Positions 2,752 through 8,887 of a stretch of DNA of 8,887 bases are shown here, piece after piece. The stretch is from a virus (Duplodnaviria > Heunggongvirae > Uroviricota > Caudoviricetes), in IMG/VR virus record IMGVR_UViG_2778261251_000018, positions 1 through 8,887 of that record, one strand, 5' to 3'. The position numbers and the translations under genes are program-made. A model generated the notes under the pieces. The model saw nothing but the letters and a program-made list of their open reading frames with translations. It was not told the origin of the DNA and did no database searches. Numbering within the stretch: the stretch's first letter is position 1; every line of letters begins with the position of its first letter.

Positions 2752-3384
2752 TTATTTTTCATTTCCATAAACATGGGTTAACCATTTTCTAATAGTTGAC
2801 TCCGCCGGAACGTCAGCATATTTTTTTACGAGAATTTCGTTAATACGTGCCACCGCCGCACTAACCCGTGCGTGGGGATTATTTGTGAAAAAAACCTCTG
2901 CAATCTGTAATGCCTCGTCTTTTAGCCTGTGCTGTGGCCTCCCTCCGCCCTTTGTTCCCAGATAACGCGCCAGTTGTTTGAACCGGTACGCCACGATTAG
3001 TGGCCGCATCATCATATTGAAAAAATCACGTGCATCGTCGTCCTCTCCTCGCGCTATCAACAGCGCAAAAAACAGGTACGGTATTGTATATACGTCAGGG
3101 GAAATCATTACGCGCCTGCACACAGTCGGCGCCAGTGCGATCAGTGTGTCTGCCAGCGCGTCGCTCTCTCCTCCACGTTTGTAATACCGGTAGAGTGGTC
3201 CTAAGTCGAGTTCACTGGTATTGAATCCAGTCACAGCCTCACGAACCTCGTCTGCCAGCGCGTTGTAAATCGCCCCTGTACGTTTTGTGTAGAGTCTCCG
3301 GGTTGCCCCCCGGTTATCCAGCGCCCGCAGCATGTCAAGTCGGGTGACAAACGTTTCAGGCCAGTCCTCATAGAATGATCTCAT
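2752..3384 (-). CDS. Hypothetical protein, 210 aa; unknown-function accessory (moron-like) gene
   Basis: ORF-track ORF 2752..3420, trimmed to the ATG at 3384 (MRSFYEDWPE...), which has a GAGGTG Shine-Dalgarno ~7 nt upstream. The 12 extra N-terminal codons have no ribosome-binding site. No family recognised. Confidence 0.7.
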   Translation of the reverse strand: MRSFYEDWPETFVTRLDMLRALDNRGATRRLYTKRTGAIYNALADEVREAVTGFNTSELDLGPLYRYYKRGGESDALADTLIALAPTVCRRVMISPDVYTIPYLFFALLIARGEDDDARDFFNMMMRPLIVAYRFKQLARYLGTKGGGRPQHRLKDEALQIAEVFFTNNPHARVSAAVARINEILVKKYADVPAESTIRKWLTHVYGNEK

Positions 3385-3625
3385 ATCCACCTCGAATAAT
3401 AAAAACAGCACTATTTGCACAATTTATTATTCGTTGTCGCATCGCAGAGTTCTATAAAAAGAAAACCCGCCGAGTCAGGGTTTTGTTATGACTCGTGAAA
3501 CAACCATCCAAGTTTTTAGACTGAACGGTGATACTTGCAAATATTTGAAAATATGGGCTGGGCCCCTATCTTATGATGTGCCTGGTAATTTATATTGTTG
3601 GGTCTTTATATCATGAGGAATCACT

Positions 3626-3859
3626 ATGGGTACGTTAGGCAACCAGCCGTGCAGAAGTCGTTATGAGTTCGATGATTTTAATTTAGCCAATCGGGCTGAG
3701 GCTCTTACTAAGTTAGCAAAAGAAACTGATGTATCGGTAGATACTTTAATCAAACTTGAAATTGCTATGCAACTGAATCGGCTCAACTCCATCCTTATCG
3801 AAAACGGTGACAAGATGGATGAGAACCTGGCAGGTATTGGCGAGATACTGCAGAAGTGA
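3626..3859 (+). CDS. Hypothetical small protein, 77 aa; only convincing plus-strand gene
   Basis: ORF-track ORF. GAGGAA Shine-Dalgarno 7 nt upstream. Followed 5 nt after the stop by a GC-rich hairpin. Divergent from the 210-aa gene across a 240-bp AT-rich intergenic region. Confidence 0.6.
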   Translation: MGTLGNQPCRSRYEFDDFNLANRAEALTKLAKETDVSVDTLIKLEIAMQLNRLNSILIENGDKMDENLAGIGEILQK

Positions 3860-4036: not shown

Positions 4037-4717
4037 CTATTCGGCACTTGTGTTAGGTTGCTGAGCGTTCTCGTTTTTGTCTTTATTAAATTGAATGTTT
4101 GGCTGTTGGAATAACGATCCCTGCAGATTTTTAAACGCTCCATCCACAATGTCGTCTCTGGATTTTTGTGGCAATGCCCAAGTACAAATACCATAGACAA
4201 TGACAGCGAAGGTTATTGTGGCGAAAATGCTGGCAAACCCATTCCAGTACCATCCTAACGAGCGGGAAACACGCCCACGTTTGCGTGCCTGGGTGATTTC
4301 AACCATGCGATGAAAATTGAGAATAGCATCCTCTCCAGCCTTCCTTAGCTCGCTCTCACGTGATGCTTTCATAGCCTGTATTTCTGCTTTCAGCCGTTCT
4401 ATTTCAACATCCTGCAAGTTAGCACCGGCTAACTGTGCATCGTACTCAAGCCGGATATCAGCATCTATCTGGTCTGTTAAGTTTGTGACGATGGCTTCTG
4501 CTTTTTCTTTGTAAGACTCAATTCGGCCTGGCGAGTTAACTGTCTGCTCATGAAAGATCTTCAGTTGGGCGTTAATATCTTCTTCTGTATATTCGCCACT
4601 ACTACGCAACTTCTCTGCATATTCATTTTTGTCGTGCTTATAGAGCGCGTAAGCCAAAAAGCCAGATGTGTCATCTTTCCCTGTAACTAATTGAGTAAAA
4701 ACCCAGAGCTTTTCCAT
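4037..4717 (-). CDS. Coiled-coil protein with a single C-terminal transmembrane helix, 226 aa; candidate membrane-anchored exclusion or abortive-infection effector
   Basis: ORF-track ORF 4037..4765, trimmed to the ATG at 4717 (MEKLWVFTQL...). The upstream 16 codons start at TTG and run through the terminator hairpin. Predicted helical heptad-like region (res ~75-130), hydrophobic stretch LGWYWNGFASIFATITFAVIVYGICTWAL (res ~155-182), Q/N-rich tail. No family recognised. Confidence 0.7.
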   Translation of the reverse strand: MEKLWVFTQLVTGKDDTSGFLAYALYKHDKNEYAEKLRSSGEYTEEDINAQLKIFHEQTVNSPGRIESYKEKAEAIVTNLTDQIDADIRLEYDAQLAGANLQDVEIERLKAEIQAMKASRESELRKAGEDAILNFHRMVEITQARKRGRVSRSLGWYWNGFASIFATITFAVIVYGICTWALPQKSRDDIVDGAFKNLQGSLFQQPNIQFNKDKNENAQQPNTSAE

Positions 4718-4730
4718 TTGGTTTTTCCGC

Positions 4731-4758
4731 AATAAAAAAGCGCCAGAAAAAGGCGCTT
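4731..4758 (-). terminator. Strong rho-independent terminator between the 64-aa gene and the 226-aa gene
   Basis: Minus-strand RNA AAGCGCC-UUUUUCU-GGCGCUU followed by UUUUAUU. 7-bp stem (4738-4744 with 4752-4758), 7-nt loop. Begins ~19 nt after the stop of the 64-aa gene and ends 14 nt before the ATG of the 226-aa gene. Confidence 0.7.
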
Positions 4759-4776
4759 TAATCAATTAAAGTAAAA

Positions 4777-5329: not shown

Positions 5330-5878
5330 TCAAGGGTGCCACATACTCCCGCGAGTAAGAGTCAAACAGGATAGTAGTACATTGCTGGCATGTGAAAAAT
5401 TAGCTTCCTGGTCTTCGAGGTTGTAAGACCATTTTTCTCCATGGAAAAGATTATGCCGTAACCTAAAAATCACTTTGAACACAAAGCTGATTTTATCTTC
5501 AATTGTTGGAGACTGTATCTGAAGTAGCGTAACAAAGCGTTCTCTGATTGCATTCTTAACATACTCAGGCGGGGCCAGTTTATTGAAGCGGTAATCGCTA
5601 TCAGGGCTGTCTCGATAGCGTCGTATAAAATAACGATAGCAATCATCTATGGTCTGACTGTCCATGCCGTTATGCACAACCAGTTCCTGTGCCAGTGCGT
5701 CAGTTCTACCAAGGCCAGCAGCCATTGATGTTAACTTTGATTCAGCCAGGGAAAAATAAATCATAAAGCGACATAAGTTATCATATTGATTCTGATGAAA
5801 TGGTTGTGCTTGTAACAGATCTGCCAATTCGGCGACTACTGGGCGTGGGGCGTCTTCTACGATACTCACTTCCGACAT
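5330..5878 (-). CDS. Hypothetical protein with a C-terminal R-x4-H motif (HEPN-like, putative RNase), 182 aa
   Basis: ORF-track ORF. AAGGGAG Shine-Dalgarno ~6 nt upstream. Motif FRLRHNLFHGEKW (res ~139-151) contains R-H-N-L-F-H, matching the HEPN R-x(4-6)-H signature with a polar residue after the Arg. The fold is not verified. Confidence 0.6.
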   Translation of the reverse strand: MSEVSIVEDAPRPVVAELADLLQAQPFHQNQYDNLCRFMIYFSLAESKLTSMAAGLGRTDALAQELVVHNGMDSQTIDDCYRYFIRRYRDSPDSDYRFNKLAPPEYVKNAIRERFVTLLQIQSPTIEDKISFVFKVIFRLRHNLFHGEKWSYNLEDQEANFSHASNVLLSCLTLTRGSMWHP

Positions 5879-6357
5879 AAAAACTCCCTTATGTTATGGA
5901 GAGGGTGAAAATAACTGTATCTGTCAGGAGATTCTTTCTCGGTTGGTCATTGAGCGCGCTCCTATAAAGCATATGTTATACCCAATATTACAAAAACCAG
6001 GTACATATGCTTGTTCTATTTAACCTGCGTCCTCTGCAAGATAATGCGACACTATCAGCAAACGTTACTGTTGTACATGAGCGGTACTTAAACTGAGGTA
6101 TTCGGCCTCGTGTTGGTCGTGACCAAATACCTTTTTAAACGCAAGTAACTCTCTCTATGAAACAGACTTTAGTCGATTTTCGAACACCTTAGTCGCAGGG
6201 TCTTGATAAATTAACAATGTATTGAAAACATATAATTATCCCATCAACTCCAACGTAATACATCACAAAAAAATCTATTTTTTGTTCTAACGTCAATACG
6301 TGTTCTAAAAACAATATTTCACTAAGAATGAGAGGATTCAGAGTACATTAAAATGAT

Positions 6358-6388
6358 GGGTTGTTTATTCAATTCTTATAAACAACCC
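6358..6388 (-). terminator. Hairpin terminator after the DUF262 gene
   Basis: Perfect inverted repeat GGGTTGTTTAT-(9 nt)-ATAAACAACCC, starting 12 nt past the stop at 6400 and followed on the minus strand by AUCAUUUUAAU. Confidence 0.5.
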
Positions 6389-6399
6389 ACTTTCGTCAT

Positions 6400-7458
6400 T
6401 TAATCATGTAAAGAGCAAAATTCTTTCAAAATATCAAATCTACGCTGTCTGTTATGACTCTTCTTTGAACCCTCTTGGCTGAGGAATCTATATTCCTCAA
6501 CCAGTGGATGGGGGTTATCTTGTTCATTTAACTCATAAATATTAAAAAAATCCTCGAGCTTTGAACTAATAACATTCATATCAACAAGCTTAGATTTACT
6601 AAGCTGTAAATAATAGTATGCCAGCACAAATATAAAATACAAATGGCCTTTTTTCTTTACAACTGATTCTAATACTTGTTTATTGTTGATAATTTGAGAT
6701 ATGATCCTTAACACTTCGTTAAAGATAATTCTGTCCTCAGTCGCCTCAGGGTAATTCTCATTGTATTGATCATACACTCGATTAATTGATTTTTGTGTAT
6801 TATCCTGCTCAATACCCATTCGTAAGAAAATCAATAATGTGCTGATGAATTGAATGTCTTGCATCCGACGGATATCTGACTGAGTAAATATCTTATAATT
6901 ATCCCAAAATTCATTTTGTGCAATTTCTTCGGCTAATCTTAAAAACTCGCCATTAAATTCAGCATTACGAAGTTCTTGAGGATTTAACGTAGTATTTGTT
7001 CTATTTAGACGTAAAAATAACTTTGCAATCTCATCATATCTCAATGATTCATTAATAAATCTGGATGAGAATTGGTATCGCCAAAAATCACGTTTGTTAT
7101 CTGCCGACAATTCTGAAAAAATTTTCCCACTATAGTCGGCTTCTTTATCATCTATAGCTGCTTTGCTTAACTTAAACTCATCATTTAAATATCGCTGGAT
7201 TGTGGTTAGCCTTTGCTGTCCATCTACAATTGAATATTTAGTATCTCCAGTGTCAGGATCAGTATTATTTGCCCAAAGGTAAATCTCAGGGATTGGGTAG
7301 CCAATTAATATTGTCTCAATTAAGGCCACTTGGTCTTTTTGCTGCCAGATATATTTTCTCTGATATGAATTATCAACTGTAATAACACCTGATTTCAAAT
7401 TATCCGTCAACCATTTAATGTCTTTCGATTCAACTTTAATTAGATCAATAGCTCTCAT
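6400..7458 (-). CDS. DUF262 (ParB/Srx-fold, GmrS-like N-terminal NTPase domain) protein, 352 aa, without a recognisable DUF1524/HNH nuclease module
   Basis: ORF-track ORF. DUF262 hallmark motifs read directly: YQRKYIW (res 32-38) and DGQQR (res 79-83, nt 7210-7224). AGGA Shine-Dalgarno 9 nt upstream. ATG overlaps the NTase stop (ATGA). The C-terminal ~200 aa is low-complexity K/N/Y-rich, with no His-Me finger seen by eye. Confidence 0.85.
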   Translation of the reverse strand: MRAIDLIKVESKDIKWLTDNLKSGVITVDNSYQRKYIWQQKDQVALIETILIGYPIPEIYLWANNTDPDTGDTKYSIVDGQQRLTTIQRYLNDEFKLSKAAIDDKEADYSGKIFSELSADNKRDFWRYQFSSRFINESLRYDEIAKLFLRLNRTNTTLNPQELRNAEFNGEFLRLAEEIAQNEFWDNYKIFTQSDIRRMQDIQFISTLLIFLRMGIEQDNTQKSINRVYDQYNENYPEATEDRIIFNEVLRIISQIINNKQVLESVVKKKGHLYFIFVLAYYYLQLSKSKLVDMNVISSKLEDFFNIYELNEQDNPHPLVEEYRFLSQEGSKKSHNRQRRFDILKEFCSLHD

Positions 7459-8045
7459 ATCAATTGTCCTTGTAACTTATCTTTTAGACTATTCAACCCA
7501 GCTATGTGATAGCGTTCAACGGACTCCCAAGAGTCATAAATTCTGTAGTTGATGTCGTTAGGTATTCCAAAAATAGTTTGAATGTCTTTTTTTAATGGTT
7601 CAACGTTACGGGACCATTTATTAAAAAAATCGACTCTAATATCTAACTCCTTCAATGACACGAATCCTTTGAAAATATTTTTAGCTACAGGAGCATATAC
7701 AGGCAAATAATTCTTTGATTGTAATTCAATAAATGCCATCCAGGAAGATTTATAAATTCTGTCGGATACTAAAACCAAGTCTATATCTGACTCATCGTTA
7801 AATGTTCGATAATTTTTATCAGGGCTCAAGCTGAATCCCATCTTAGCACTTCCAACAATTGCAATATTATTTACATGAATTTCAAGCTTCTTAGACATAT
7901 ATAGCTTAAACTCATCATAATCTTTAGCAAAGGTTATTGATTTTTTTTGTTCCCGAAAATACCAAATGTCATGTCCTAAAAGGTATCGTTGGTAGACATC
8001 GCGGATATCGTCGGATAGTAGCTTTTCCTTAAATTCATTTAACAT
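7455..8045 (-). CDS. Minimal nucleotidyltransferase (Pol-beta superfamily, MNT/SMODS-like), ~196 aa
   Basis: ORF-track ORF 7455..8069 starts at TTG; the first ATG is at 8045 (MLNEFKEKLL...). Neither start has a strong ribosome-binding site. NTase signature read directly: IVGSAKMG (GS motif, nt ~7848-7856), then NDESDIDLVLV (acidic D-x-D pair, nt 7779-7787), then LDIRVD as a likely third acidic residue. Confidence 0.8.
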   Translation of the reverse strand: MLNEFKEKLLSDDIRDVYQRYLLGHDIWYFREQKKSITFAKDYDEFKLYMSKKLEIHVNNIAIVGSAKMGFSLSPDKNYRTFNDESDIDLVLVSDRIYKSSWMAFIELQSKNYLPVYAPVAKNIFKGFVSLKELDIRVDFFNKWSRNVEPLKKDIQTIFGIPNDINYRIYDSWESVERYHIAGLNSLKDKLQGQLI

Positions 8046-8096
8046 TTTCTTGTGCGCCCCTATTGACAAGAACTGTAGATTAGCTGTTACATTTCC

Positions 8097-8125
8097 ATAG
8101 TATGTTTTTATTGCGTCATTAACAA
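8097..8125 (-). promoter_or_regulatory. Candidate sigma70 promoter for the NTase-DUF262 operon
   Basis: Minus strand: -35 TTGTTA (plus 8120-8125), 17-bp spacer, -10 TACTAT (plus 8097-8102), ~50 nt upstream of the ATG at 8045. Only 4 of 6 matches in each hexamer. Confidence 0.25.
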
Positions 8126-8887
8126 GTAATTAAATGCTTTCACCAGATTTAATTTCGCTGATACACTTGTTTTTTTCATGGTTATGACTGATTTTTTAGT
8201 TCATCGCAGTCATTGCGGAGCACCCTGCTAATGAGGTATCACTACATTTAATGCTGGCAATCATTAATAAATAATTTTTCATGTTATTTTACTTGGTCGT
8301 TAACGTGATATCGGCCTCAGAACAATCACCAATAGACAATATATCTCATGCCGTTAATGGTCAAATCACAGCCCCCCTTCAGTAAGCTAATAGATGTCTG
8401 CTTACTGCCAGATAAAGTCATTGTTCTTATAGACAGGTAATAATCCCACATCGAAATTAAATATCTTCCTTTTACATTAGAAATAATTCCTCCAGGACAC
8501 TATCCATTGCCGGGCACAATCACTCGGGGTATAACGATATAAAATATGTTCATGATAGTGCAGGTTCGTATATTAAGTTCAGCAGCGAAAACATGCCTTA
8601 CAGGTTTCCAGTTTTGGGAGCGTCGTTACAGGATCCTGTGCATACCGTTCCCATCTGTTGAATTAAAGGTTTCACAGCCTTTGCCGATATCACCTTTTAC
8701 CTTGCCTGTGATGCGTTCAGTGCTCAGCGCTGAGAGATCCCCTCATAATTTCCCCAAAGCGTAACCATGTGTGAATAAATTTTGAGCTAGTAGGGTTGCA
8801 GCCACGAGTAAGTCTTCCCTTGTTATTGTGTAGCCAGAATGCCGCAAAACTTCCATGCCTAAGCGAACTGTTGAGAGTACGTTTCGA

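What the first reader, a model, noticed from the sequence alone, without database searches (positions are those of the whole stretch)
6400..8069. Translationally coupled minimal nucleotidyltransferase + DUF262 operon: candidate undescribed defence or toxin-like module
Seen in sequence: two minus-strand genes overlap by 4 nt (ATGA at 7455-7458). The first encodes a ~200-aa protein with the Pol-beta nucleotidyltransferase signature (GS at IVGSAKMG, acidic pair in ESDIDLVLV, later LDIRVD). The second encodes a 352-aa protein with the DUF262 motifs YQRKYIW and DGQQR. The pair has its own candidate promoter (8097-8125) and terminator hairpin (6358-6388), and sits in a ~2.6-kb AT-rich islet inside a prophage. 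Established knowledge: DUF262 is the NTP-binding ParB/Srx-fold module of GmrSD, BrxU and SspE type IV restriction and defence proteins, where it is fused to or paired with a DUF1524 HNH nuclease. Minimal nucleotidyltransferases act as signal synthases (CD-NTase/SMODS), as tRNA or protein nucleotidylating toxins (MenT, AbiEii), or as antitoxins (MntA). Inference: I cannot match an NTase + stand-alone DUF262 pairing to any named system from memory. Either the NTase makes or transfers a nucleotide that the DUF262 protein senses, or one protein is a toxin controlled by the other.
Basis: partly seen in the sequence, partly recalled or inferred. Interest (0 to 1): 0.85.

Follow-up and report, generated by a model that had tools for sequence, protein, structure and literature searches.

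The report
Nucleotidyltransferase plus DUF262 defence gene pair
A prophage in a pig E. coli carries two overlapping genes, a very divergent small nucleotidyltransferase and a ParB-like DUF262 DNA/NTP-binding protein. The two travel together across most bacterial phyla, sit in known phage-defence hotspots, and in many species lie in one operon with a DNA methylase, so they are probably an unnamed restriction-like anti-phage system with no recognisable nuclease.

Summary
Two minus-strand genes overlap by ATGA at 7455-7458. Gene A is 7455-8045 (196 aa, ATG start more likely than TTG 8069). Gene B is 6400-7458 (352 aa).

The pair is a conserved unit:
- 69 of 73 species-level loci have the genes overlapping or no more than 20 nt apart.
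- Two natural A-B fusions exist.
- The two proteins co-diverge (r 0.95).

It lies in lambdoid, P2 and P4-satellite hotspots and in defence islands. In about 40% of species a C5 or N4/N6 DNA methylase, often with Vsr, is in the same operon, where a restriction gene would sit. NsnB/C, HEPN and DUF1524 are absent, and I found no paper describing the pair.

Best reading: an unnamed DNA-sensing restriction-like defence cassette whose catalytic partner is a nucleotidyltransferase. The mechanism is inferred, not shown.

The parts
7455..8045 (-). Gene A: 196-aa divergent minimal nucleotidyltransferase-like protein (WP_064226191.1). TTG 8069 is an alternative start.
7779..7853 (-). Putative active-site block of gene A: IVGSAK (G65 S66, 7853-7848) to SDID (D87 7787-7785, D89 7781-7779).
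   Evidence: At least 90% conserved in 66 species-level homologues, and invariant in alignment A1. In the model the motifs sit at strand-GS-helix and at the start of the next strand.
6400..7458 (-). Gene B: 352-aa DUF262 (ParB/Srx-fold NTP-binding) domain plus an all-helical C-terminal domain. NsnA-like architecture (WP_064226192.1).
7003..7362 (-). DUF262 motifs of gene B: QRxxxW (Q33-W38, 7362-7345), DGQQR (7224-7210), FxRxN (7017-7003).
   Evidence: At least 90% conserved in 69 species-level homologues. Motif definitions are from PMC12065111.
7455..7458 (-). ATGA stop/start overlap (translational coupling), with an AAGGA Shine-Dalgarno-like sequence 8 nt upstream inside gene A.
   Evidence: Sequence. 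Overlap or a gap of 20 nt or less in 69 of 73 species loci; a 4-nt overlap is the commonest arrangement.
6358..6388 (-). Hairpin 12 nt downstream of the gene B stop codon. Plausible but weak intrinsic terminator.
   Evidence: RNA fold -16.6 kcal/mol, z -3.15. Not called by the terminator scan because the loop is 9 nt and the U-run is short.
8097..8125 (-). Weak candidate promoter (TTGTTA, 17 nt spacer, TACTAT; 8 of 12 consensus positions).
   Evidence: Read from the sequence. Below the scan threshold and not listed. Unverified.
6000..8400 (.). AT-rich islet (GC 0.30-0.36) carrying the pair inside a lambdoid prophage, between the replication genes and the nin/Q region.
   Evidence: Composition profile. 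Prophage annotation of NZ_CP122768.1.

Best explanation
The two genes form a self-contained, horizontally mobile anti-phage cassette of the DUF262 (ParB-like) kind.

Gene B is the sensor. It has an NTP-binding DUF262 domain and a helical DNA-binding domain. This is the same architecture as Menshen NsnA and the sensing half of GmrSD, BrxU and SspE.

Gene A is a small Mg2+-dependent nucleotidyltransferase that works in physical complex with gene B. It takes the place that a nuclease occupies in the known systems (DUF1524 HNH in GmrSD, HEPN in PD-T4-2, NsnB/NsnC in Menshen).

Proposed sequence of events:
1. Gene B binds DNA that it classes as foreign.
2. An NTP-dependent switch in gene B licenses gene A.
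3. Gene A transfers a nucleotide onto a macromolecular target, most likely a nucleic-acid 3' end (tRNA, as MenT toxins do, or the invading DNA).
4. Phage replication is blocked.

In relatives from Bacillota and some other phyla the same pair is co-transcribed with its own DNA methylase, which marks self DNA, so there the pair plays the restriction role. The E. coli copy has no methylase of its own. It must either rely on host marks or recognise a phage-specific DNA feature.

Shown here:
- the fold and motifs of gene B
- the conserved GS...DxD core of gene A
- the obligate pairing, fusions and co-divergence of the two genes
- the hotspot locations
- the methylase linkage

Inferred:
- that the cassette defends against phage
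- that gene B senses DNA
- that gene A is the effector
- what gene A modifies
For: Pairing:
- 80 species loci were retrieved with gene A. 73 non-redundant loci carry both genes. 38 overlap, 31 have a gap of 0-20 nt, and 3 of the 4 exceptions are frameshifts or an IS insertion.
- Three reverse look-ups starting from gene B homologues all found gene A upstream.
- All 8 viral-contig loci have the pair.
- In-frame A-B fusions exist in L096 and P0351.
- The pairwise identity matrices of A and B correlate at r = 0.946, with 0 of 999 permutations reaching that value.

Gene B:
- No nuclease domain by Pfam, and an all-alpha C-terminal half.

Gene A:
- Conserved IVGSAKxGxS...SDxD.
- PF01909 is the only recurrent Pfam family, in 27 of 54 members.

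Defence context:
- lambdoid nin-region islet
- P2-like prophage between the replication gene and the portal gene
- Klebsiella P4-like satellite between psu and int
- next to HsdR, an Mrr-helicase protein and a CHAT-TPR protein

Methylase linkage:
- A C5 methylase is the immediate upstream neighbour in 25 of 70 loci, on the same strand, with gaps of -7 to +14 nt.
- Vsr occurs in 8-10 loci.
- An N4/N6 methylase overlaps the 3' end of gene B in 3 loci and lies about 0.6-0.9 kb upstream of gene A in 2 more.
- The Bacillus island is exactly methylase, A, B, sitting between guaA and a purine permease gene.
- No other recurrent partner, and no nuclease, was found.
Against: - No experiment exists on any member.
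- The GS-to-DxD spacing is 21 residues, against the 10-12 I recall as usual for MNTs.
- No conserved third carboxylate is present.
- The window's clade has no linked methylase within 6 kb, so self versus non-self discrimination in E. coli is unexplained.
- A related subfamily of gene A (about 260 aa) occurs without any DUF262, so gene A does not strictly need gene B.
- Three loci have a degraded gene A with an intact gene B, and one has the reverse. This does not tell which protein is the effector.
- Restriction by nucleotidyl transfer has no precedent.
Confidence: 0.5

Rival explanations
1. Toxin-antitoxin-like regulation on the HepT/MntA model. Gene A is not the effector but a regulator. It covalently nucleotidylates (for example AMPylates) gene B to keep it inactive. 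Gene B is the effector, acting through NTP hydrolysis, DNA clamping and silencing, or a cryptic ParB-type nuclease activity. It is released when infection disturbs the modification.
For: - The closest structural relatives of gene A are MNT antitoxins: HI0073, 8xeh MNT and 5yep MntA.
- The gene order, small nucleotidyltransferase first and overlapping its partner, is as in MNT-HEPN operons.
- Fused forms exist here, as fused MNT-HEPN forms do (PMC13000451, listed).
- Tyrosines Y170 and Y179 are at least 90% conserved in gene A.
Against: - Loci with a frameshifted or truncated gene A keep an intact gene B (L019, L020, L046). That would be lethal if gene A were an essential antitoxin.
- The methylase linkage argues for DNA-level self-marking rather than antitoxin control.
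- Gene B has no recognisable toxic domain.
Confidence: 0.2
2. Signalling or guard model. Gene B binds this ligand through its NTP or DNA site, and the ligand activates it or holds it in check.
For: - Gene B has an intact nucleotide pocket.
- Two-gene nucleotidyltransferase-plus-receptor systems are an established theme, on my own knowledge.
Against: - No SMODS or CD-NTase family hit appears even at E = 10 in any of 54 members.
- Gene A lacks the C-terminal helical lobe of CD-NTases.
- Natural fusions and strict co-divergence fit a stable complex better than a diffusible signal.
- The model does not explain the methylase linkage.
Confidence: 0.1
3. A modification-dependent (Type IV-like) or modification-blocked restriction enzyme in which the ParB/DUF262 protein itself cuts or nicks DNA. 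Gene A would then be an accessory subunit for specificity, loading or NTP supply, and not a transferase acting on a target.
For: - REBASE already labels a DUF262-only protein next to a methylase as a putative Type II restriction enzyme (PMC13091528).
- A PADLOC Type II REase model matches the DUF262 half of gene B at 5e-10.
- The pair sits in the operon position of a restriction gene.
- Some ParB-fold proteins are annotated as nucleases.
Against: - In characterised DUF262 enzymes the cutting is done by the DUF1524 domain (PMC10952713; PMC12137116).
- The GS and DxD residues of gene A are conserved as strictly as the DGQQR motif of gene B, which argues for catalysis by gene A.
Confidence: 0.12
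4. Not a defence system. The pair is a prophage accessory module with another role, for example DNA partition or silencing, or DNA or RNA modification for the phage's own benefit.
For: - No phenotype is known.
Against: - The pair occurs in chromosomal two-gene or three-gene islands outside any phage, for example Bacillus between guaA and a permease gene.
- It lies next to restriction-modification and other defence genes, and in the P2 and P4 hotspots.
- It is absent from 50,697 sequenced phage records.
Confidence: 0.05

Closest known systems
Menshen (NsnA-NsnB-NsnC)
   Same: Gene B aligns over its whole length with the NsnA model (E 4.3e-41, residues 9-348 to model positions 48-379 of 385). 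It has the same DUF262 plus helical DNA-binding (ParBDB) architecture and motifs as described in PMC12065111.
   Different: No NsnB ABC-ATPase and no NsnC inPIN/nuclease effector is present in the window or in any of about 75 related loci. The partner is a nucleotidyltransferase placed upstream. The pair co-diverges as a unit, rather than shuffling effector domains as described for Menshen.
PD-T4-2 (DUF262 protein plus HEPN protein)
   Same: It is a two-gene system with a DUF262 protein lacking DUF1524. Gene B matches PD-T4-2_A at 2.5e-19.
   Different: Gene A does not match PD-T4-2_B and is not a HEPN protein. The nearby 182-aa ORF with an Rx4H-like motif is unrelated to the pair.
GmrSD / BrxU / SspE (DUF262 + DUF1524 Type IV and phosphorothioate-sensing enzymes)
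   Same: Same N-terminal ParB/Srx-fold NTP-binding domain, with BrxU and SspE as the top structural matches and the DGQQR motif present.
   Different: No DUF1524 His-Me nuclease is present. About 40% of relatives are linked to a methylase in the same operon. That linkage is the signature of modification-blocked rather than modification-dependent restriction.
HepT/MntA (HEPN-MNT) toxin-antitoxin pairs
   Same: Gene A is a small Pol-beta-type nucleotidyltransferase with hGS...SDxD. MNT antitoxins are its best structural matches. It is encoded first and overlaps its partner.
   Different: The partner is DUF262, not HEPN. Gene A is twice the length I recall for MNTs (about 100 aa), with extra N- and C-terminal helices. 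The GS-DxD spacing is 21 residues. PF01909 is matched only below threshold.
Type II restriction-modification operons with a Dcm-type methylase and Vsr
   Same: In about 25 species the order is (small HTH protein) - C5 methylase - A - B - (Vsr), on one strand, with gaps of a few nucleotides. This is the layout of a restriction-modification operon.
   Different: The restriction position is filled by a nucleotidyltransferase plus a ParB-like NTP-binding protein with no known nuclease fold. The window's own copy has no methylase.
MenT / AbiEii nucleotidyltransferase toxins
   Same: On the favoured reading, gene A is likewise a nucleotidyltransferase used as the harmful activity of a defence or toxin module.
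   Different: No sequence family match. MenT and AbiEii belong to the DUF1814 family and pair with antitoxins, not with DUF262 (my own knowledge).

Membership tests
DUF262 / GmrSD_N (ParB/Srx-fold NTP-binding domain) | Pfam PF03235 above the gathering score, with the QRxxxW, DGxQR and FxxxN motifs | tested here: met
GmrSD family Type IV restriction enzymes | A DUF1524 His-Me (HNH-like) nuclease domain, fused or encoded by the partner gene | tested here: not met
   No PF07510 or HNH hit in gene A or gene B. The C-terminal half of gene B is all-helical. No such neighbour recurs in related loci.
Menshen | NsnA-like gene followed by an NsnB ABC-ATPase and an NsnC effector | tested here: not met
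   An NsnA-like protein is present, but no NsnB or NsnC hit appears in the window or among related loci.
PD-T4-2 | DUF262 protein paired with the PD-T4-2_B HEPN protein | tested here: not met
   Gene A and the other window ORFs give no PD-T4-2_B hit at E up to 0.1. The 182-aa neighbour has no Pfam hit at E up to 1.
Pol-beta superfamily minimal nucleotidyltransferase (NTP_transf_2 / MNT) | hG[GS] after strand 1 and [DE]h[DE] on strand 2, in the alpha/beta nucleotidyltransferase fold | tested here: met
Pol-beta superfamily minimal nucleotidyltransferase (NTP_transf_2 / MNT) | Family profile match above the curated threshold | tested here: not met
   The window protein has no PF01909 hit at all (table A). 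27 of 54 relatives hit it only weakly, best E 7.8e-4. Foldseek against the PDB is not significant.
Pol-beta superfamily minimal nucleotidyltransferase (NTP_transf_2 / MNT) | A third catalytic carboxylate on a neighbouring strand | tested here: inconclusive
   No further acidic residue reaches 80% conservation. Model coordinates could not be inspected.
CD-NTase / SMODS signal synthases (CBASS) | SMODS or CD-NTase profile match and an adjacent effector with a nucleotide sensor domain | tested here: not met
Restriction-modification system | A methylase in the same operon as the restriction component | tested here: not met
   There is no methylase in the window or the surrounding prophage annotation. 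The feature is met in relatives: a C5 methylase lies directly upstream in 25 of 70 loci and an N4/N6 methylase is linked in 5 loci.
Restriction-modification system | Restriction of unmethylated DNA, and lethality of the restriction genes without the methylase | not testable with these tools
   Needs cloning and transformation or plaque assays.

The most novel reading that the evidence does not exclude
The pair is the restriction arm of a previously unrecognised class of restriction-modification-like immunity. Foreign DNA is recognised by a ParB-like NTP-dependent sensor. The damage is done by nucleotidyl transfer onto nucleic acid or protein, with no nuclease involved. Methylase-less copies, such as the E. 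coli prophage one, would work as stand-alone sensors.
Probability: 0.25. Interest if true: 0.9.

Novelty: new variant of a known kind. Interest (0 to 1): 0.7.

Why it matters
DUF262/ParB-like sensors are a recurring front end of bacterial immunity (GmrSD, BrxU, SspE, Menshen, PD-T4-2, Dazbog). So far they have been tied to nucleases or RNases. Here the same front end is locked to a family of about 200-aa nucleotidyltransferase-like proteins that matches no curated family in Pfam, NCBIfam or PADLOC. That family has about 1500 clusters at 50% identity.

The pair spans most bacterial phyla and at least one archaeon. It sits in three classic phage and satellite defence hotspots. In many species it occupies the restriction slot of a methylase-Vsr operon.

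If it defends, it adds a widespread unnamed system to the catalogue. It also raises a sharp mechanistic question: how can a restriction-like system work without a nuclease? The system is small (1.65 kb), comes from E. coli, and its predicted active-site residues are obvious, so the question can be tested directly.

Tried and rejected
- **Gene A identification by sequence.** Pfam, NCBIfam and PADLOC scans found nothing. Only PHROG 32008, of unknown function, matched. Single-sequence and profile searches of solved structures found no relative. Foldseek against the PDB was not significant. The afdb50 Foldseek library was unavailable.
- **The 182-aa ORF at 5330-5878 as a third component.** It has an RHNLFHG (Rx4H) motif, so I considered a PD-T4-2-like HEPN partner or an MNT partner. 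I rejected this for four reasons. It has no Pfam hit at E up to 1. It has no homologue in any of 87 related loci. Its GC content differs. An IS3 separates it from the pair in two E. coli genomes.
- **The C5 methylase as part of a neighbouring ordinary restriction-modification system.** This is true for a second methylase paired with an EcoO109I-like enzyme in 6 loci. The methylase that abuts gene A is a separate gene and is present without any other restriction gene elsewhere.
- **Gene A as a Toprim or PD-(D/E)xK nuclease.** I rejected this from the motif pattern (GS rather than E before the helix; two helices between the DxD strand and the next strand) and from the recurrent PF01909 hits.
- **A linker-joined A+B structure prediction.** I prepared it and then dropped it. 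The tool returns no coordinates or interface scores and was likely to refuse a concatenated sequence.
- **E. coli distribution.** The P2-type variant was not found in complete E. coli genomes.
- **Literature.** Searches for a described nucleotidyltransferase + DUF262 system found none.
Full report
**Where the window comes from.** The region is 100% identical to a lambdoid prophage of Escherichia coli ETEC1738 (pig faeces). Only two other genomes out of 5426 complete E. coli genomes carry it. No match exists in 50,697 GenBank phage records, by DNA or by protein. In the annotated genome the pair lies between the replication genes and the nin/Q/lysis region. The window also holds DUF1367, YbcO, antiterminator Q and a holin. 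GC is 0.30-0.36 across about 6000-8400 and 0.41-0.54 elsewhere. This is the signature of an acquired accessory islet.

**The observation.** Two minus-strand ORFs, 6400-7458 (352 aa) and 7455-8069, share ATGA at 7455-7458.
- RefSeq starts the upstream gene at ATG 8045 (196 aa). All homologues begin at the equivalent residue, so I use 7455-8045.
- An AAGGA lies 8 nt before the gene B start codon.
- The hairpin after gene B folds well (12-bp stem, z = -3.15), but it has a 9-nt loop and a short U-run, so the terminator scan does not list it.
- The proposed promoter matches only 8 of 12 consensus positions and is not returned by the scan.

**Gene B.**
- Pfam gives PF03235 (GmrSD_N/DUF262) at 1e-24 and nothing else.
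- PADLOC's best hit is Menshen NsnA (4.3e-41), aligned over residues 9-348. PD-T4-2_A follows at 2.5e-19, then a Type II REase model that covers only the DUF262 half, then SspE and the HEC-05/06 models weakly.
- An AlphaFold2 model (pLDDT 86, pTM 0.57, with a disordered hinge at 153-168) has an alpha/beta N-terminal domain and an all-helical C-terminal half.
- Across 69 species-level homologues the three DUF262 motifs defined in the literature (QRxxxW, DGxQR, FxxxN; PMC12065111) are at least 90% conserved. So are several basic residues in the C-terminal domain.
- Gene B is therefore an NsnA-type protein, "ParB-DUF262 + ParBDB", without DUF1524.

**Gene A.**
- No Pfam, NCBIfam or PADLOC hit. 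Only PHROG 32008, of unknown function.
- It belongs to a large family. A word-indexed search found 121 clusters. An exhaustive profile search of 1.84 billion representatives found 1541 clusters at E up to 1e-3 and 872 at E up to 1e-10. In the best 150, the only ones listed, nearly all full-length members are stand-alone proteins of about 195-215 aa.
- IVGSAKxGxS and SDxD are at least 90% conserved, together with Y170 and Y179.
- The AlphaFold2 model is confident (pLDDT 95.5, pTM 0.88). It places GS between a strand and a helix, and DxD at the start of the next strand. This is the Pol-beta nucleotidyltransferase signature.
- Foldseek finds nothing significant, although its best hit is again a TUTase.
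- When all 54 members of the alignment are scanned one by one at a permissive threshold, 27 hit PF01909 NTP_transf_2 (best 7.8e-4) and 7 hit Polbeta. No other family is hit by more than 3 members.
- I conclude that gene A is a very divergent minimal nucleotidyltransferase. Two caveats apply. The GS-DxD spacing is 21 residues, longer than the 10-12 I recall as usual.

**The pair is a unit.**
- A scan of one genome per species with the gene A profile returned 123 confirmed loci, of which 80 were kept.
- After removing redundant loci, 73 carry both genes. 38 overlap, with a 4-nt overlap the commonest arrangement (15 loci). 31 have gaps of 0-20 nt.
- Of the four exceptions, two have a frameshifted gene A and one has an IS inserted between the genes.
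- The hosts span Pseudomonadota, Bacteroidota, Bacillota, Actinomycetota, Cyanobacteria, Planctomycetota, Acidobacteriota, Deinococcus and a Methanoregula MAG.
- Three look-ups that started from gene B homologues instead (Klebsiella, Priestia, Paenibacillus) all found gene A directly upstream.
- All eight viral-contig loci have the pair.
- Two natural in-frame A-B fusions exist: L096 and P0351.
- The pairwise identity matrices of A and B correlate at r = 0.946, with 0 of 999 permutations reaching that value.
- These points argue for a stable two-protein machine.

**Genomic context.**
- E. coli variants at 49% identity sit in P2-like prophages, between the replication gene and the portal gene.
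- A Klebsiella variant sits in a P4-like satellite, between psu and the integrase gene.
- Elsewhere the pair abuts a Type I HsdR, an Mrr-helicase protein, a CHAT-TPR protein and integrases. It also forms two-gene islands between housekeeping genes.

**Methylase linkage.**
- In 25 of 70 loci the immediate upstream gene is a C5 cytosine methylase (PF00145). It is on the same strand, with gaps of -7 to +14 nt.
- Vsr is adjacent in 8-10 loci. A small HTH protein precedes the methylase in a few.
- In Bacillus the island is exactly methylase, A, B, between guaA and a purine permease gene.
- In five further loci from other phyla the linked methylase is of the N4/N6 type (PF01555). In three of them it overlaps the 3' end of gene B; in the other two it lies about 0.6-0.9 kb upstream of gene A.
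- Six loci also carry an EcoO109I-like enzyme with a second methylase just upstream. That is a separate, ordinary restriction-modification system.
- No nuclease or other partner recurs near the pair.
- Two unrelated methylase families have thus been recruited into the same operon, in the layout of restriction-modification systems. This is the strongest clue to function. In those lineages the A-B pair behaves like the restriction component, so its activity is directed at DNA status and is harmful to unmarked DNA or to the cell.
- REBASE curators have already labelled a DUF262-only protein next to a methylase as a putative Type II enzyme in Bifidobacterium (PMC13091528).
- The window's clade (Pseudomonadota and Bacteroidota) has no methylase within 6 kb, and none is annotated in the prophage.

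**Mechanism.** The known DUF262 systems use the domain as an NTP-dependent sensor of DNA state that licenses an effector. The effector is DUF1524 in GmrSD, BrxU and SspE, HEPN in PD-T4-2, and NsnB/NsnC in Menshen (PMC10952713; PMC12065111; PMC12137116). By position and conservation, gene A is the catalytic partner here. I therefore favour sensor (B) plus nucleotidyltransferase effector (A), at about 0.5.

The rivals are:
- an MntA-like regulator that nucleotidylates B (0.2)
- a cutting or nicking ParB-fold enzyme with A as accessory (0.12)
- a nucleotide or oligonucleotide signal made by A (0.1)
- a non-defence role (0.05)

Degraded copies exist in both directions, which weakly argues against a classical toxin-antitoxin relation. 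What gene A modifies is unknown. How the methylase-less E. coli copy spares its host is also unexplained. Reliance on host Dam or Dcm marks, or recognition of a phage-specific feature, are speculations.

**Novelty.** PADLOC 2.0, Pfam and NCBIfam do not know gene A. Seven full-text searches, plus the GmrSD phylogenomics paper and the Menshen survey, gave no description of a nucleotidyltransferase + DUF262 system. A 2025 survey of enterobacterial DUF262 clusters describes only nuclease-containing architectures (PMC12373910). I could not query REBASE, or current DefenseFinder or PADLOC releases. I rate the pair a new variant of a known kind (DUF262-based restriction/defence), with a real chance that the chemistry is new.

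Noticed in passing
window 5330-5878 (-): A 182-aa ORF just downstream of the pair carries RLRHNLFHG, an Rx4H motif reminiscent of HEPN RNases. It has no Pfam hit even at E = 1, only PHROG 27260 (unknown function). It has no homologue in any related locus, and an IS3 separates it from the pair in two E. coli genomes. It may be an independent single-gene accessory or defence gene.
   Followed up: partly
L081 5938-6720, L084 5920-6717, L088 5803-6579, L066, L078, L082, L085: A sister subfamily of gene A (about 260 aa, same CIVGSAKLGFSPSP...SDVDVV core, acidic C-terminal tail) occurs without any DUF262. In two loci it overlaps the start of a DUF499 (Hma/BREX-related) ATPase gene. In one locus it follows a short Piwi-domain (pAgo-like) protein. 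Elsewhere it stands alone. This suggests the nucleotidyltransferase module is reused by other immune systems.
   Followed up: partly
L096 4139-7728 (IMG/VR UViG_2910832237_000010): A viral contig encodes an in-frame fusion of gene A and gene B (ORF 5842-7728). The fusion is preceded by a C5 methylase and an EcoO109I-family restriction enzyme. It is a ready-made single-chain version for structural or functional work.
   Followed up: partly
L097-L099 (Klebsiella) and L002-L005 (E. coli): Variants of the pair occupy the psu-integrase slot of a P4-like satellite, and the slot between the replication gene and the portal gene of P2-like prophages. In the P2 loci two further proteins without Pfam hits (243 and 220 aa) lie just upstream.
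   Followed up: partly
window 4037-4765 (-): A 242-aa protein with a coiled-coil-like middle and a hydrophobic C-terminal segment. It matches PHROG 25194 (unknown function) and has no Pfam or PADLOC hit.
   Followed up: no
window 2752-3420 (-) and 3626-3859 (+): Two conserved phage ORFs of unknown function (PHROG 5215 at 2.6e-102; PHROG 5550 at 1.5e-53) flank an AT-rich intergenic stretch. They are divergently oriented, which may indicate a small regulatory pair.
   Followed up: no
L103 1696-2924; L001 18420-19633: IS3-family elements sit on different sides of the pair in different E. coli genomes: downstream of gene B in two UK pig isolates, and upstream in ETEC1738. Both genes are left intact.
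   Followed up: partly
window 8196-8282 (-): A 28-aa ORF (MKNYLLMIASIKCSDTSLAGCSAMTAMN) with a lipobox-like LAGC lies upstream of gene A. It looks like the remnant of a lipoprotein gene. This was read from the sequence only.
   Followed up: no
L019, L020, L046, L010, L061: Decayed copies exist: gene A is frameshifted or truncated with gene B intact (3 loci), gene B is lost with gene A intact (1 locus), and an IS is inserted between the genes (1 locus). Some of these may be assembly errors.
   Followed up: no
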